Shown: positions 6,622 through 48,896 of the stretch, in pieces | Position numbering within the stretch: position 1 is the stretch's first letter | Layout: every line of letters starts with the position of its first letter | DNA from: Octopus vulgaris | Taxonomy: Eukaryota | NCBI GenBank assembly: GCA_951406725.2 | Contig: OX597818.1 | Span: 6,758,001 to 6,822,000, forward strand | Length of the DNA stretch: 64,000 nt | Direction: 5' to 3' | Notes under the pieces: generated by a model | Told to the model about the DNA's origin: nothing | Databases searched by the model: none | The model's input: only the letters and a program-made list of their open reading frames with translations | Position numbers and translations under genes: made by a program

Positions 6622-7415
6622 AGAATTTACAAAAATTAAAAAACAAAAGACGAAGACAGGTGGTGTAGACAACAATCGGCTGCATTAGTTTAACGCTCGG
6701 GGAGTGAAAAAGTCTTTAACATTTCGAACCTACGCTCTTCCACAGAAAGGAACACTGAAAGAAACGGAGAGAAAATAAAGAATGTGTAGTGGCTAGCGAA
6801 GTATCATGGCGAATGCCGGACAGAGGGGTCACACGGGAGAGCTAGGAAGAAGAGATAATAAAGTAGTGGTGATCCAAAAACGAAGGTGCGCGTGCATGGG
6901 TATATGAGAGCTGGTGACATTCACTTGTGCGTGTGTGCATGTGCAGGTGTGTGGTGATGGTGTGAGGCTGCAAAGTGGACAACGCTAGTGTTGGCGTGGT
7001 GGTGTGATGTGATGTGGTGTTGCGTGGTATGGTGGTGTTTGGTGTGGGGGTGTGTGATGTGGTGTTGGGATGTGGGGCAGATGAGAGTGGAGAAACAAGG
7101 TTGCGGTGTGGGTTAGGCTGAGGGTGAGGGTAGAGGTGGGGTATGTAGGATTAGTTGTAAGGGATGGGGTAGGGTGGGATGGAATCGATAGGGAAGGTGG
7201 CGTTGGCTTGTGTAGAGGTGGGGTTACTATGGAGGGGTGACGATGAAGGGAGGGGGGAAATGAGAAAGTGGGTAGGAGTGAAGAGAAGTAGGAGTCGGAC
7301 CAAGAGAGGAGAGGTGGGTGGGAGGAATAAGGTGTGAGAGGAAGAGAGGAGAGGGGAGGAGAGTTGAGCCCATATGGCACAAAGGATCGAAGAGAGAAGA
7401 CTAATCCCTACCAAG
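6622..7415 (-). mobile_element. Penelope-like element 3' end (endonuclease C-terminus, pyrimidine-rich UTR, pLTR)
   Basis: Minus strand near 7410-7360 reads LVFSLRSFVPYGLN, resembling the C-terminus of PLE GIY-YIG domains. A hammerhead-like motif lies downstream. Confidence 0.65.
6714..6749 (-). ncRNA. Variant minimal hammerhead motif (CUGUGGA core)
   Basis: Minus: CUUU-CUGUGGA-A-GAGC-guag-GUUC-GAAAUGUU-AAAG. Related to the motif at 8778-8812. Confidence 0.55.
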
Positions 7416-7503
7416 ATTGGAAGGATATAGAGAAGATTAGCAGATTAACATCACCCCTGTGCAAAAATGACACGCAAGTTCGTAAAGCGTTCTATATTTT
7501 TTA

Positions 7504-33730: not shown

Positions 33731-35568
33731 TTGTAAGATGTAATACTGCAAGCACTGGTGTATATAGAATCTTATAGTTCCTAGGGGGTGTAGAGTAGCA
33801 TTAAGGGAGGCGTGAGATCTAGTAATTCATTGTAAATATACCTATCATGACTGATAGGGAAGAAAGTCTTAGAGCTGAATGAAAAACAGTGCAATAAATG
33901 TAGAGGATGAATGCAGACTATACTGGTAAGGTTTAAAAGAGGGCAATATTATATACAATATATAATTTTCTACACGCGACGGTGCGTTATGAAAGATATG
34001 ACACCCCAGGTAATTTCTACCATCAAATCATAGTATGATAATATATGATAATACCTGGACATCCTTGTTAATTATTTTTAATAGAAACCGAAGTTTGATT
34101 ACAAAATGTAGGAAACAAAAGTCTAACAATTTTATTACATACTTTATCTACTGACACGCTGTCAAGTCAGGGATCAAACATCGCATTATATGATTCAGTA
34201 GGGGTGATGAGAAACGCATGTTTTGTGTCAACGGCTGAAGGTGGCAAAAGCATTTATTGTTTTGAATTCATGCAATATTCCGGATATAGTGAATGGTTCC
34301 AAAACAGAGAAAATAAAATTTCGAAATTGATATTTGCAACTATGAGAATAGAGTACATCCCTTATTTGGAGCTATTTCTGAAATGGATCGGAAAAAAGAA
34401 ACGTTAAAAAAATAAACAAACAAGGTAGGCTGGTAGAACGACATGTTAGCCTATGTTGTGTCTTTCGGCACTGGAACTAGAATCACTCTAGATTTTAAAA
34501 TCGGAGAAACATTGCGCGAAACAAAATTTAAAACTAAAGTAAGAGAACAAGAATTCTGATCTTTTTATACTAATTAGTAAGTCATACCCACTTAAGAAGC
34601 CACTATCGAAAGACTCAGTTGACTTATATTTTTAACTAATATAGTCCCCTACATGTCTAAATTAAATTCTAAAATAGCACTTTATTTAGATCATTTTTTG
34701 TGGTTTGAAAAGCACTTAGCAAAATCTCTTTCTATAAAGTGAATATGGAGACACTTTATTTAAATTTTCTTTGGTTATCATCAAATAAAATAATATCTTC
34801 TGAAACCTTCATCACGTTAAACATACTTCTTCGTAGTCAGTAGGGCGTTTCTTAGCAATGAGTCTTTATTTTTATGCAGAGGTGAGGATCTCTAGATTTG
34901 CACATTATTTATGACACAGATACTGAGATTCTCTGTCACCATGCACACCAAACTGTTTCTATATTGTGAACTTTTTATAATTGTACGTGCATACTGTGTG
35001 TATTTTCTTATTGTCTGTATATAAATATCCTTACACATACTTGCTATATGTATAAGTGTGCAAGAACACACGAACCCACTATTTCTGGGAATGATTTTGT
35101 GGCATACTCCACGTTTGCTACCTATGAATATAAATAGCATTTCGTGCATGCGCACATTTCTATATATGATAATCTGTATATCTATGTCACTGCTTTTCTG
35201 TATATGTGAATTTGTGTCAATATTTTATCCTGAAGCAATACCTCTGCGTGAAGCTCCATTATCCCCATCACCGAATAACGTTCCACTCTATTCGCATACA
35301 CACAGAAAGAACCACACAAGCTTCAAATTTTAAACAAAAGGAAAATATCTTTCACACTAGACACACTTTCACTTTCTTACTCACCACTCAATTACCTTTA
35401 AGTGAAATGTACCATTATATATCAACATCTTACATTTCCCAGGACTTGTTAATTGCGAAATTAACATTTATAAAAAACATGTCATATAAATCTAGGCCTA
35501 TATCAATTATAAAAATATCACCGTTGTTTAAAATAACATCCACACAGAAACACACACACATATATATG

Positions 35569-35639
<71 letters not shown>

Positions 35640-35734
35640 GGGCTCCTAAATAAAGATGCCGAGTGCTGGGAACACAAAAAGGGGATGAATTTATCGAGAG
35701 TGAAAATCAAAAACGTTTACCGATAACTTTAACA

Positions 35735-35808
35735 ACTCGTACCGCGGTTTCTGCTTCTTTCTAGCAAAACACAGAATATGTTTGCTAAGGCCAGCTTCAT
35801 CAGCGAGT
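35735..35808 (-). ncRNA. Type I hammerhead ribozyme, unit 1
   Basis: Minus: ACUCG-CUGAUGA-AGCU...UAGCAAA/UUUGCUA hairpin...AGCA-GAAAC-CGCG-GUA-CGAGU. Palindromic ACCGCGGU stem III. Confidence 0.85.
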
Positions 35809-36179
35809 CGCCTAAATTTAATCGAGGTCTGAAGCGATGTGGGACTATGTGTTGAACCCGACTACTAGCAGATCTTAACTTTTCAAATCTCTGCGCAGAC
35901 GCAAAATTTACACGGGCATGCCGGGAAGAATTTTACGAATAAATCCATCATGTAGTATGCGAATATAAACAAGAAGGGTAGTAATATTATTTACTACCAG
36001 GTGCCCAGCACAAAAGACGAATTAGTCATAAGACAAAAATATTATTCATATAGAAAAATATTATTCATGTAGTTATACAATTAAGGGCTCCTAAATAAAG
36101 ATGCCGAGTGCTGGGAACACAAAAAGGGGATGAATTTATCGAGAGTGAAAATCAAAAACGTTTACCGATAACTTTAACA

Positions 36180-36253
36180 ACTCGTACCGCGGTTTCTGCT
36201 TCTTTCTAGCAAAACACAGAATATGTTTGCTAAGGCCAGCTTCATCAGCGAGT
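36180..36253 (-). ncRNA. Type I hammerhead ribozyme, unit 2
   Basis: Same sequence as 35735-35808, offset by 445. Confidence 0.85.
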
Positions 36254-36624
36254 CGCCTAAATTTAATCGAGGTCTGCAGCGATGTGGGACTATGTGTTGA
36301 ACCCGACTACTAGCAGATCTTAACTTTTCAAATCTCTGCGCAGACGCAAAATTTACACGGGCATGCCGGGAAGAATTTTACGAATAAATCCATCATGTAG
36401 TATGCGAATATAAACAAGAAGGGTAGTAATATTATTTACTACCAGGTGCCCAGCACAAAAGACGAATTAGTCATAAGACAAAAATATTATTCATATAGAA
36501 AAATATTATTCATGTAGTTATACAATTAAGGGCTCCTAAATAAAGATGCCGAGTGCTGGGAACACAAAAAGGGGATGAATTTATCGAGAGTGAAAATCAA
36601 AAACGTTTACCGATAACTTTAACA

Positions 36625-36698
36625 ACTCGTACCGCGGTTTCTGCTTCTTTCTAGCAAAACACAGAATATGTTTGCTAAGGCCAGCTTCATCAGCGAGT
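36625..36698 (-). ncRNA. Type I hammerhead ribozyme, unit 3
   Basis: Same sequence as 35735-35808, offset by 890. Confidence 0.85.
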
Positions 36699-37482
36699 CG
36701 CCTAAATTTAATCGAGGTCTGCAGCGATGTGGGACTATGTGTTGAACCCGACTACTAGCAGATCTTAACTTTTCAAATCTCTGCGCAGACGCAAAATTTA
36801 CACGGGCATGCCGGGAAGAATTTTACGAATAAATCCATCATGTAGTATGCGAATATAAACAAGAAGGGTAGTAATATTATTTATCTTTATTTAGGAGCCC
36901 TTAATTGTATAACTACATGAATAATATTTTTCTATATGAATAATATTTTTGTCTTATGACTAATTCGTCTTTTGTGCTGGGCACCTGGTAGTAAATAATA
37001 TTACTACCCTTCTTGTTTATATTCGCATACTACATGATGGATTTATTCGTAAAATTCTTCCCGGCATGCCCGTGTAAATTTTGCGTTTGCGCAGAGATTT
37101 GAAAAGTTAAGATCTGCTAGTAGTCGGGTTCAACACATAGTCCCACATCGCTGCAGACCTCGATTAAAGTTATTGGTAAACGTTTTTGATTTTCACTCTC
37201 GATAAATTCATCCCCTTTTTGTGTTCCCAGCACTCGGCATCTTTATTTAGGAGCCCTTAATTGTATAACTACATGAATAATATTTTTCTATATGAATAAT
37301 ATTTTTGTCTTATGACTAATTCGTCTTTTGTGCTGGGCACCTGGTAGTAAATAATATTACTACCCTTCTTGTTTATATATATATATATATATATAATTTA
37401 TTTACCATTGCTTCTAGTATTGCGAAAGGACATTTGGAGAATTCTTTAGTGTAAATTCATTCACGAAAGCTATTTTCTGTTC

Positions 37483-38385: not shown

Positions 38386-38928
38386 AAACAAATTCAAAAT
38401 GCGATAAAATAAAATTAATTATTATCGCTGGTGTTTCTAGCACAGGCCATATATTTTTCATATATAAGTACATTAAAGGCGAAGTATGTACTAGAAACAC
38501 AGAAGCTTGATAAATTTAGTGAAATGAAGATAAAAACTTTTACTAACTCTGTTCATCTTAGACTGCAGTTTCGCCTTTTTCAGCAATAAAAATAATATTT
38601 ATTTACTCAGGTAGGCTCTTCAGTAAGATTCCTGTTATTATGAAGCGCAACTCGATAGACACATGTGCGTCTACTAATTTGCTCTTTCTAACTAATCAGA
38701 TCACTGCGCAGACGCAGAACGAACCCGACAAACTAGGGATTTCTGGTATATAGTCTAACGCTCAAAATTTATCGAGAAATATGTAAATAAATTCAAAATG
38801 CGATAAAATAAAATTAATTATTATCGCTGGTGTTTCTAGCACAGGCCATATATTTTTCATATATAAGTACATTAAAGGCGAAGTATGTACTAGAAACACA
38901 GAAGCTTGATAAATTTAGTGAAATGAAA
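38386..38928 (-). mobile_element. Retrozyme/pLTR-like partial tandem, about 1.35 x 399-bp unit
   Basis: 38391-38528 is repeated at 38790-38927; (TA)n flanks; carries a hammerhead. Confidence 0.85.
38555..38629 (-). ncRNA. Canonical type I hammerhead ribozyme (GUC triplet)
   Basis: Minus: AUCUUA-CUGAAGA-GCCU-[A/U-rich hairpin]-AGGC-GAAAC-UGCA-GUC-UAAGAU. Fully consensus core, 6-bp stem I. Confidence 0.92.
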
Positions 38929-38935
38929 TATAGTG

Positions 38936-47907: not shown

Positions 47908-48204
47908 ATAGATATATATATATACATATACGTATATATATATAAGTTTAACAATTAAGGATAACCTCTTAATAAGGGATCTTAACAAGAAATTATCGGG
48001 TAGTTAGCGTGAAAACCTCATAAAAGAAAAGAATTCGAAAATAATTTTTTTTCTCTTGAACAAATTAATTATATCTATATTGTATAGAGGGCATTATTAC
48101 ACATAAATGCCTCACACTAAGAGGGACAAAGTCATTACTACCAAAATTATACTAATCATACCCAAATGCAGTTTTTCAAAGCAAGACATTTAAAAAATGA
48201 ATTT

Positions 48205-48262
48205 AGTTCTGTATCACCGTGATTTCACATTCAACTTACGTCTTATGATCATCAGCAGAACT
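48205..48262 (-). ncRNA. Type I hammerhead ribozyme, copy 1
   Basis: Minus: AGUUCUG-CUGAUGA-UCAU...AUGU-GAAA-UCACGGUGA-UA-CAGAACU. 7-bp stem I, U-U mismatch at the base of stem II. Confidence 0.8.
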
Positions 48263-48683
48263 GATTCTGAACACATCATAAATAAACTACCAACCTTACG
48301 TAGCGAAGACGAACAGACAACTGCTCACTCCGGCCAAGCACATGGAATGTTTATAAATCATATATCCGGTAAATGGCGGGCTTTTTACGAACTGCATGTC
48401 GGGTAATAAAAAGTATTTCGGAATAAGTTTAACAATTAAGGATAACCTCTTAATAAGGGATCTTAACAAGAAATTATCGGGTAGTTAGCGTGAAAACCTC
48501 ATAAAAGAAAAGAATTCGAAAATAATTTTTTTCTCTTGAACAAATTAATTATATCTATATTGTATAGAGGGCATTATTACACATAAATGCCTCACACTAA
48601 GAGGGACAAAGTCATTACTACCAAAATTATACTAATCATACCCAAATGCAGTTTTTCAAAGCAAGACATTTAAAAATGAATTT

Positions 48684-48741
48684 AGTTCTGTATCACCGTG
48701 ATTTCTCATTCAACTTACGTCTTATGATCATCAGCAGAACT
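48684..48741 (-). ncRNA. Type I hammerhead ribozyme, copy 2
   Basis: As copy 1 but with UCAU/AUGA fully paired; AUA triplet. Confidence 0.88.
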
Positions 48742-48845
48742 GATTCTGAACACATCATAAATAAACTACCAACCTTACGTAGCGAAGACGAACAGACAAC
48801 TGCTCACTCCGGCCAAGCACATGGAATGTTTATAAATCATATATC

Positions 48846-48896
<51 letters not shown>

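What the first reader, a model, noticed from the sequence alone, without database searches (positions are those of the whole stretch)
37141..37200. Inverted array copy has lost precisely its ribozyme through a TTAAA microhomology
Seen: the inverted unit reads CCTCGA-TTAAA-GTTATTGG, omitting 89 bp (equivalent to about 35733-35821) that contain the whole hammerhead and its extended stem I. TTTAA occurs at both deletion ends, at the foot of the stem. Inference: a polymerase, plausibly the RT, skipped across the folded ribozyme, which would be indirect evidence that the structure formed on the template. Alternatively a ribozyme-less variant co-propagates.
Basis: partly seen in the sequence, partly recalled or inferred. 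Interest (0 to 1): 0.72.

Follow-up and report, generated by a model that had tools for sequence, protein, structure and literature searches.

The report
One-off ribozyme skip in retrozyme copy
One copy of a young, ribozyme-bearing jumping repeat lacks its whole ribozyme motif between two short identical words, likely because the copying enzyme slipped across a predicted fold in the RNA; it is a single accident of a known kind, not a spreading variant.

Summary
The deletion is real in the assembly: 89 bp (unit 105-193, equal to 35733-35821) lost at a 5-nt TTTAA repeat, removing a type I hammerhead motif. It is private: 1 of 217 anchored units genome-wide, so no ribozyme-less variant co-propagates. 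The 'inverted copy' is one arm of a two-arm Penelope-type insertion, an architecture this scan already found on other DNA. For a structure-guided skip: of 109 possible repeat pairs of 5 nt or more, this one lies closest in the predicted fold of the element-sense RNA (rank 1), but not in ssDNA (19, 22) or antisense RNA (38). Against: n = 1; 13 other deletions in the family are not structure-bridged; stem I shows no two-sided compensatory change; the junction lies inside the predicted helix, not at its foot; stem I also forms in the non-catalytic fold; raw reads were unavailable. Best reading (0.6): reverse-transcriptase slippage across stem I during insertion, the known hairpin-plus-direct-repeat ('falsitron') mechanism. 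A second family shows one ambiguous ribozyme loss. Modest interest.

The parts
37164..37168 (+). Deletion junction: single remaining copy of the TTAAA/TTTAA microhomology; 89 bp (unit 105-193) missing
   Evidence: unique in the assembly
36883..37378 (+). Right arm of the insertion (element RNA sense is + here). In inferred cDNA order from 37378: unit 335-445, 1-104, gap, 194-445, 1-29
35634..36883 (-). Left arm: 2.8 tandem 445-bp units (element RNA sense is -), from unit position about 6 to 365 of the third unit; three intact hammerhead motifs; no ATG ORF of 40 aa or more inside the element
35731..35812 (-). Type I hammerhead motif, copy 1 (stem I 35731-35739 with 35804-35812; core 35740-35803; predicted cleavage between 35740 and 35739)
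36176..36257 (-). Type I hammerhead motif, copy 2
36621..36702 (-). Type I hammerhead motif, copy 3
35728..35732 (+). First TTTAA repeat of an intact unit (unit 100-104)
35817..35821 (+). Second TTTAA repeat of an intact unit (unit 189-193); these two are the only TTTAA words in the unit
37174..37174 (.). Private substitution (unit 94, CpG transition), 6 nt from the junction
37087..37087 (.). Private substitution (unit 270)
35560..35634 (.). Left (TA)n target microsatellite
37374..37395 (.). Right (TA)n target microsatellite

Best explanation
This is a one-off 89-base deletion in one arm of a retrozyme insertion, likely made when the reverse transcriptase, copying the element RNA, slipped between two TTTAA words that the predicted stem I of the hammerhead would hold side by side. 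Shown: the deletion, its microhomology, its uniqueness among anchored units, the two-arm anatomy of the family, and that the junction lies 7-11 nt before the predicted cleavage site in copying order. Inferred: a Penelope-type enzyme primed both strands of a cut (TA)n target at two fixed points of the RNA (unit about 1 and 328/335); on the right arm it paused after about 215 nt on entering the paired region, the cDNA end released, re-annealed at the only other TTTAA of the unit across the stem, and went on. The copy cannot regenerate a ribozyme from that unit and has left no detectable descendants.
For: Rank 1 of 109 repeat pairs of 5 nt or more (2 of 352 of 4 nt or more) for closeness in the predicted circular RNA fold and 1 of 109 in the linear fold (1.1% with 1/length weighting); rank 22 and 19 in ssDNA folds and 38 in antisense RNA. 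Stem I pairs predicted at 0.72-0.98 for 8 of 9 pairs, 0.64 for the last. The left arm of the same insertion holds three intact ribozymes and shares subfamily alleles with the right arm; 13 loci have a locus-private substitution in both arms, so arms often copy one template. The locus is young (3 differences in 1690 compared bases). Arm ends at unit 100-108: 10 seen, 4.3 expected, nominal p 0.013. Run-off at the cleavage site would give 71- or 85-nt deletions, not 89, and 0 of 194 arms end at 109-114 (2.8 expected). The mechanism is shown in vitro for hairpins flanked by direct repeats (PMC8240250, passages).
Against: One event, picked out after the fact; with 6 deletions of 27 nt or more in the sample, the chance that one ranks in the top 1% is about 0.06 (my arithmetic). 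13 of 13 other tested deletions have 0-3 nt microhomology and are not structure-bridged. The other 107 sampled units that carry both TTTAA words did not skip. The 100-108 excess of arm ends is not significant over all windows (p 0.75) and arm ends do not track predicted helices overall (p 0.64). The isolated 126-nt region folds no better than shuffles (z 0.23). Stem I and its extension have 0 of 19 pairs with a two-sided change. Two private substitutions fall in the 216 nt of this arm's singly copied part, against one in the rest of the locus, which could point to error-prone repair or another template. Microhomology deletions in Penelope copies have been ascribed to DNA repair (PMC3846280, passages).
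Confidence: 0.6

Rival explanations
1. DNA-level microhomology deletion (end-joining repair or replication slippage), during resolution of the insertion or afterwards, landing on the ribozyme by chance.
For: Other family deletions lie anywhere in the unit; 19 of 109 possible repeat pairs would also remove the core; arm junctions show short overlaps and inserts typical of end joining; a partial stem still forms in the minus-strand ssDNA fold of the short region (-10.1 kcal/mol); PMC3846280 (passages) reports such deletions in Penelope copies.
Against: The pair ranks 22 and 19 of 109 in ssDNA folds against 1 in RNA; the locus is young; among loci that could be dated, those with deletions are not clearly older than the rest (p 0.21).
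Confidence: 0.22
2. The right arm was copied from a separate RNA molecule that had already lost the ribozyme (a rare 356-nt variant made at RNA level or at an unseen locus).
For: The arm crosses the ribozyme site only once, so a deleted template cannot be excluded; two private substitutions lie in the singly copied part; the deleted monomer keeps the rest of the predicted rod fold.
Against: No second copy in the assembly; arms of one insertion often share private alleles (13 loci), and the left arm here is intact three times.
Confidence: 0.08
3. Assembly or library artefact.
For: The junction could not be checked in raw reads; the locus is a long inverted repeat between microsatellites.
Against: Clean junction with microhomology; the surrounding anatomy matches 60 other loci with the same pair of start classes; the other 214 anchored units assemble at near-full spacing.
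Confidence: 0.06
4. A ribozyme-less variant that co-propagates as a subfamily.
Against: 1 of 217 units, 1 of 100 with other anchors, 1 exact junction, no second full-length hit among 40 of 494 candidates scored.
Confidence: 0.02

Closest known systems
RT template slippage across a hairpin flanked by direct repeats ('falsitrons', e.g. CD19 exon 2; PMC8240250, passages read)
   Same: Segment between two short direct repeats lost, one repeat kept, repeats brought together by a predicted hairpin, no splice signals.
   Different: There an in vitro artefact of retroviral RT seen in many molecules; here one genomic copy, inferred to come from a Penelope-type RT in vivo, with 5-nt repeats.
Metazoan non-LTR retrozymes (PMC7229834, passages read; 10.64898/2026.07.22.740005, parts 1-2 of 5 read)
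   Same: ORF-less short tandem repeats, each with a type I hammerhead; low GC; dispersed monomers to multimers.
   Different: Expression, cleavage and circles not shown here; the core has an unpaired A on both sides of stem II (A168, A124); the parts read do not describe ribozyme-deleted units.
Penelope-like element insertions (PMC3846280 and PMC8557442, passages; PMC11167929, parts 1-2 of 4; PMC4209133, Results)
   Same: Head-to-head inverted arm, extension at one end only, AT-rich or (TA)n target, internal RT start sites, palindromic helix III, extra nucleotide after A9.
   Different: No RT or endonuclease ORF; the one-sided extension is about 111-118 nt rather than 30-40; the autonomous partner was not identified.

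Membership tests
Type I hammerhead ribozyme | Core CUGANGA and GAAA, conserved across copies | tested here: met
   Pileup of 208-231 units: U174 207/208, G173 208/208, A172 210/210, A169 212/212, GAAA 230-231/231; C175 190/208, G170 198/211
Type I hammerhead ribozyme | NUH cleavage triplet (H not G) | tested here: met
   Position 17: A 123, U 91, C 18, G 1 of 233; U16.1 232 of 233
Type I hammerhead ribozyme | Helices II and III supported by covariation | tested here: met
   One pair each with two-sided change (U-A/C-G in II, C-G/U-A in III) on 18 chosen haplotypes plus the junction row; related sequences, so weak; stem III mostly palindromic
Type I hammerhead ribozyme | Helix I supported by covariation | tested here: inconclusive
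   0 of 19 pairs with two-sided change, 3 one-sided, 13 invariant; predicted pairing only
Type I hammerhead ribozyme | C11.1 directly followed by G12 | tested here: not met
   An invariant A (228/228) lies between C125 and GAAA, facing A168: a variant core; no Rfam hammerhead hit at gathering score
Type I hammerhead ribozyme | Self-cleavage | not testable with these tools
   Needs an in vitro assay
Non-LTR retrozyme | ORF-less tandem units of a few hundred bp, each with a type I hammerhead motif | tested here: met
Non-LTR retrozyme | Expressed as linear and circular RNA | not testable with these tools
   Only assembled contigs were on hand
Penelope-mobilised non-autonomous element | Inverted arm with fixed ends and one-sided extension in AT-rich targets | tested here: met
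   76 of 133 loci two-armed; 60 of the 64 with both starts classed pair a start at 1-21 with one at 322-339; 181 of 194 canonical starts follow TA-rich DNA
Penelope-mobilised non-autonomous element | Homology to the pLTR of an autonomous PLE | not tested
   No search made
RT hairpin slippage (falsitron type) | Direct repeats at both ends, one kept | tested here: met
   TTTAA
RT hairpin slippage (falsitron type) | Repeats juxtaposed by RNA structure | tested here: inconclusive
   Met in prediction (rank 1 of 109); structure not shown experimentally or by covariation
RT hairpin slippage (falsitron type) | Recurrent product from the same template | tested here: not met
   1 of 217 units
Spliceosomal intron loss | GT-AG, GC-AG or AT-AC ends | tested here: not met
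   None in any of 6 registers on either strand

The most novel reading that the evidence does not exclude
Stem I of the hammerhead is a real roadblock for the Penelope-type RT in the germ line: the enzyme pauses on entering it and either stops or hops across, so retrozyme insertions carry a fossil record of RNA folding on the template. The window's deletion, the mild excess of arm ends at unit 100-108, and locus L225 of a second family (ribozyme replaced from stem I arm to stem I arm by 22 AT-rich bases) would be three traces of it.
Probability: 0.2. Interest if true: 0.55.

Novelty: new member of a known kind. Interest (0 to 1): 0.3.

Why it matters
If the skip is RT-made, it is a small in vivo hint that retrozyme RNA is copied folded and uncut (or re-ligated), which agrees with the in vitro result that unprocessed RNA is the Penelope template (PMC11167929). 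It gives a defined, cheap test substrate. As a single dead-end copy it changes nothing about how the family spreads. I found no report of a ribozyme-deleted retrozyme unit in the listings of paper searches (open library only; most listed papers and all supplements unread), nor in look-ups of the scan's notes.

Tried and rejected
Read support: the look-up of sequencing runs listed no holder on record as RNA and only assembled contigs. Runs X1, X4, X6, X10 on the forward array listed no joint; X1, X4, X6, X14 on the junction showed no crossing piece among the 32 of 289 pieces printed. Contigs drop rare variants and it is unknown whether any run is the assembled individual, so this is no evidence either way. 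Rfam gathering scan found no hammerhead. Splicing rejected. Run-off at the cleavage site followed by a jump rejected: wrong predicted sizes, no arm ends there. General link between arm ends and predicted helices: none (p 0.64). A pattern for a sister ribozyme cassette seen as loose ends in public contigs found nothing in this assembly. Of 24 deletion rows, 10 were dropped or merged before the control: four losses of one 19-bp internal repeat unit, three 8-nt alignment artefacts of a divergent subfamily, one ambiguous row (L114), and two duplicates of one event (L161, L215). Fifteen of 209 arms with non-canonical starts were left out of the arm-end test. Loci were found partly with ribozyme-flank patterns, so the 133 are not a random sample. 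No denominator was obtained for the 479-bp family. PMC3774820 (passages) gave nothing on ribozyme deletions.

Full report
Observation. The window holds a 445-bp unit repeated 2.8 times (35629-36883) and followed by an inverted arm to 37378. Against the unit (36074-36518) the inverted arm has one 89-bp gap with no inserted bases, at a 5-nt TTTAA repeat; the remaining word is at 37164-37168. The lost piece equals 35733-35821 and holds the hammerhead core (unit 112-175) and both strands of stem I (103-111, 176-184). Microhomology of 5 nt or more is expected in 0.7% of random 30-250-nt deletions of this unit.

The ribozyme. On the minus strand of the forward units the motif reads CUGAUGA ... GAAA-C-CGCG-G-UA. 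Across 208-233 aligned units the core is conserved and the cleavage base is A, U or C in 232 of 233. Stem III variants are mostly palindromic, and stems II and III each show one two-sided change. Palindromic helix III and an extra base after A9 are described for PLE hammerheads (PMC4209133, Results read). An invariant extra A before GAAA makes the core a variant, Rfam gives no hit, and activity is untested.

The element. I gathered 221 stretches that merge into 133 loci. Read on the strand opposite the ribozyme, 194 of 209 arms begin at a few fixed positions (1-21, 322-339, 409-420), 181 of them after TA-rich DNA; 76 loci have two head-to-head arms, and 60 of the 64 with both starts classed pair a 1-21 start with a 322-339 start. 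This is the inverted, one-sided-tail anatomy of Penelope-like insertions (PMC3846280, PMC8557442, passages) and fits internal RT starts with extension of both target strands (PMC11167929, parts 1-2). So the 'inverted copy' is inferred to be an independently primed cDNA arm starting at 37378. I had this reading, which show the scan reached it on other retrozyme families.

How common is the deletion? The exact junction occurs once in 2.8 Gb against 154 intact left flanks. With anchors on both sides of the ribozyme, 99 units have near-full spacing, none is intermediate and one, ours, is short. With better-conserved anchors, 214 are near full length and 3 short: ours and two units of one locus with flank deletions that keep the ribozyme. 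A DNA search with the junction found no second full-length hit among 40 of 494 candidates scored. Diverged copies that miss the exact anchors are not counted. A co-propagating variant is not supported.

Is the position special? The unit offers 109 direct-repeat pairs of 5 nt or more spaced 30-250 nt; 19 would remove the core. Ranked by path length through sampled structures, the observed pair is first in the circular and the linear fold of the element-sense RNA (2 of 352 at 4 nt), but 22nd and 19th in the ssDNA folds and 38th in antisense RNA. That favours an RNA template. The junction is 7-11 nt before the predicted cleavage site; run-off there would give 71- or 85-nt deletions, and no arm ends at 109-114. 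The left arm holds three intact ribozymes and shares subfamily alleles with the right; 13 loci have a private allele in both arms, against 91 private alleles in one arm only. This test was prompted by note e1-8662707. The locus is young.

Results against. It is one event chosen after the fact. The 13 other deletions tested have 0-3 nt of microhomology and ordinary fold distances (dropped rows are listed under Tried and rejected). Of 198 intact passes in 116 loci, 107 carry both TTTAA words. Arm ends show 10 against 4.3 expected at 100-108 (nominal p 0.013), but 0.75 over all windows, larger excesses lie at 28-44 and 345-375, and there is no overall link to helices. The isolated region folds no better than shuffles and stem I lacks two-sided changes. 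The predicted helix continues about 8 bp beyond the junction, so the cut is inside it, not at its foot. In the minimum-energy fold the core's CUG pairs with stem III bases; the hammerhead-constrained fold is 2 kcal/mol higher and shares stem I. A skip would therefore report stem I, not the catalytic fold. Two private substitutions lie in this arm's singly copied part. No raw reads were available.

A second case. One gapped search with the window's other hammerhead family (479-bp unit, 47942-48847) returned 2 short hits. L226 is an old, 75% identical copy. In L225 unit 265-320, from one stem I arm to the other, is replaced by 22 AT-rich bases. The left piece is degraded (90% over 39 nt) while the right is 100% identical, so it may instead be a new arm primed in a TA tract beside an older fragment. 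No denominator was measured. It is a lead only.

Mechanism and verdict. Best reading, 0.6: the RT paused on entering stem I, and its cDNA end re-annealed at the only other TTTAA of the unit, across the stem. This is the hairpin-plus-direct-repeat slippage shown for cDNA synthesis in vitro (PMC8240250, passages). Rivals: DNA-level microhomology deletion 0.22, pre-deleted RNA template 0.08, artefact 0.06, propagating variant 0.02; splicing is excluded by the end dinucleotides. The element works like, and by the features testable here fits, a non-LTR retrozyme moved by a Penelope-like element (PMC7229834, passages; 10.64898/2026.07.22.740005, parts 1-2), with a variant core. The deletion is a private accident of a known kind. 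Interest 0.3.

Noticed in passing
window 47942-48847: Second, unrelated hammerhead-bearing repeat (479-bp unit, 1.9 copies, between TA tracts); ribozyme on the minus strand at 48205-48262 and in the second unit.
   Followed up: partly
L225:1512-1545 (G000:C3 near 37517238): Copy of the 479-bp family in which the hammerhead, from stem I arm to stem I arm, is replaced by 22 AT-rich bases; ambiguous second ribozyme loss.
   Followed up: partly
133 loci of the 445-bp family: 60 of 64 two-arm loci with classed starts pair one start at unit 1-21 with one at 322-339; none pairs two 1-21 starts, one pairs two 322-339 starts.
   Followed up: yes
445-bp family, unit 28-44 and 345-375: Arm ends are in excess 20-45 nt past each start site (21 vs 9.5 and 24 vs 14.7 expected, windows chosen after seeing the data); both arms of the window's locus end there (29 and 365).
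   Followed up: partly
L175, L157, L004, L091 (arm ends at unit 101-105): Junctions carry short repeats or fold-backs of the sequence just copied; such inserts also occur at other junctions and were not counted.
   Followed up: no
445-bp family, unit 124 and 168: Near-invariant unpaired A on both sides of the base of stem II, a variant hammerhead core.
   Followed up: partly
loose ends at window 35727 and 37169 in runs X6, X14: Public contigs show a sister element with a different ribozyme cassette joined at unit about 99; not found by one exact pattern in this assembly.
   Followed up: partly
window 7390-7501: Degenerate U6 snRNA copy with an 8-nt insertion.
   Followed up: no
window about 38390-38540 and 38790-38935: A piece of about 150 bp is duplicated between TA tracts (seen).
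   Followed up: no
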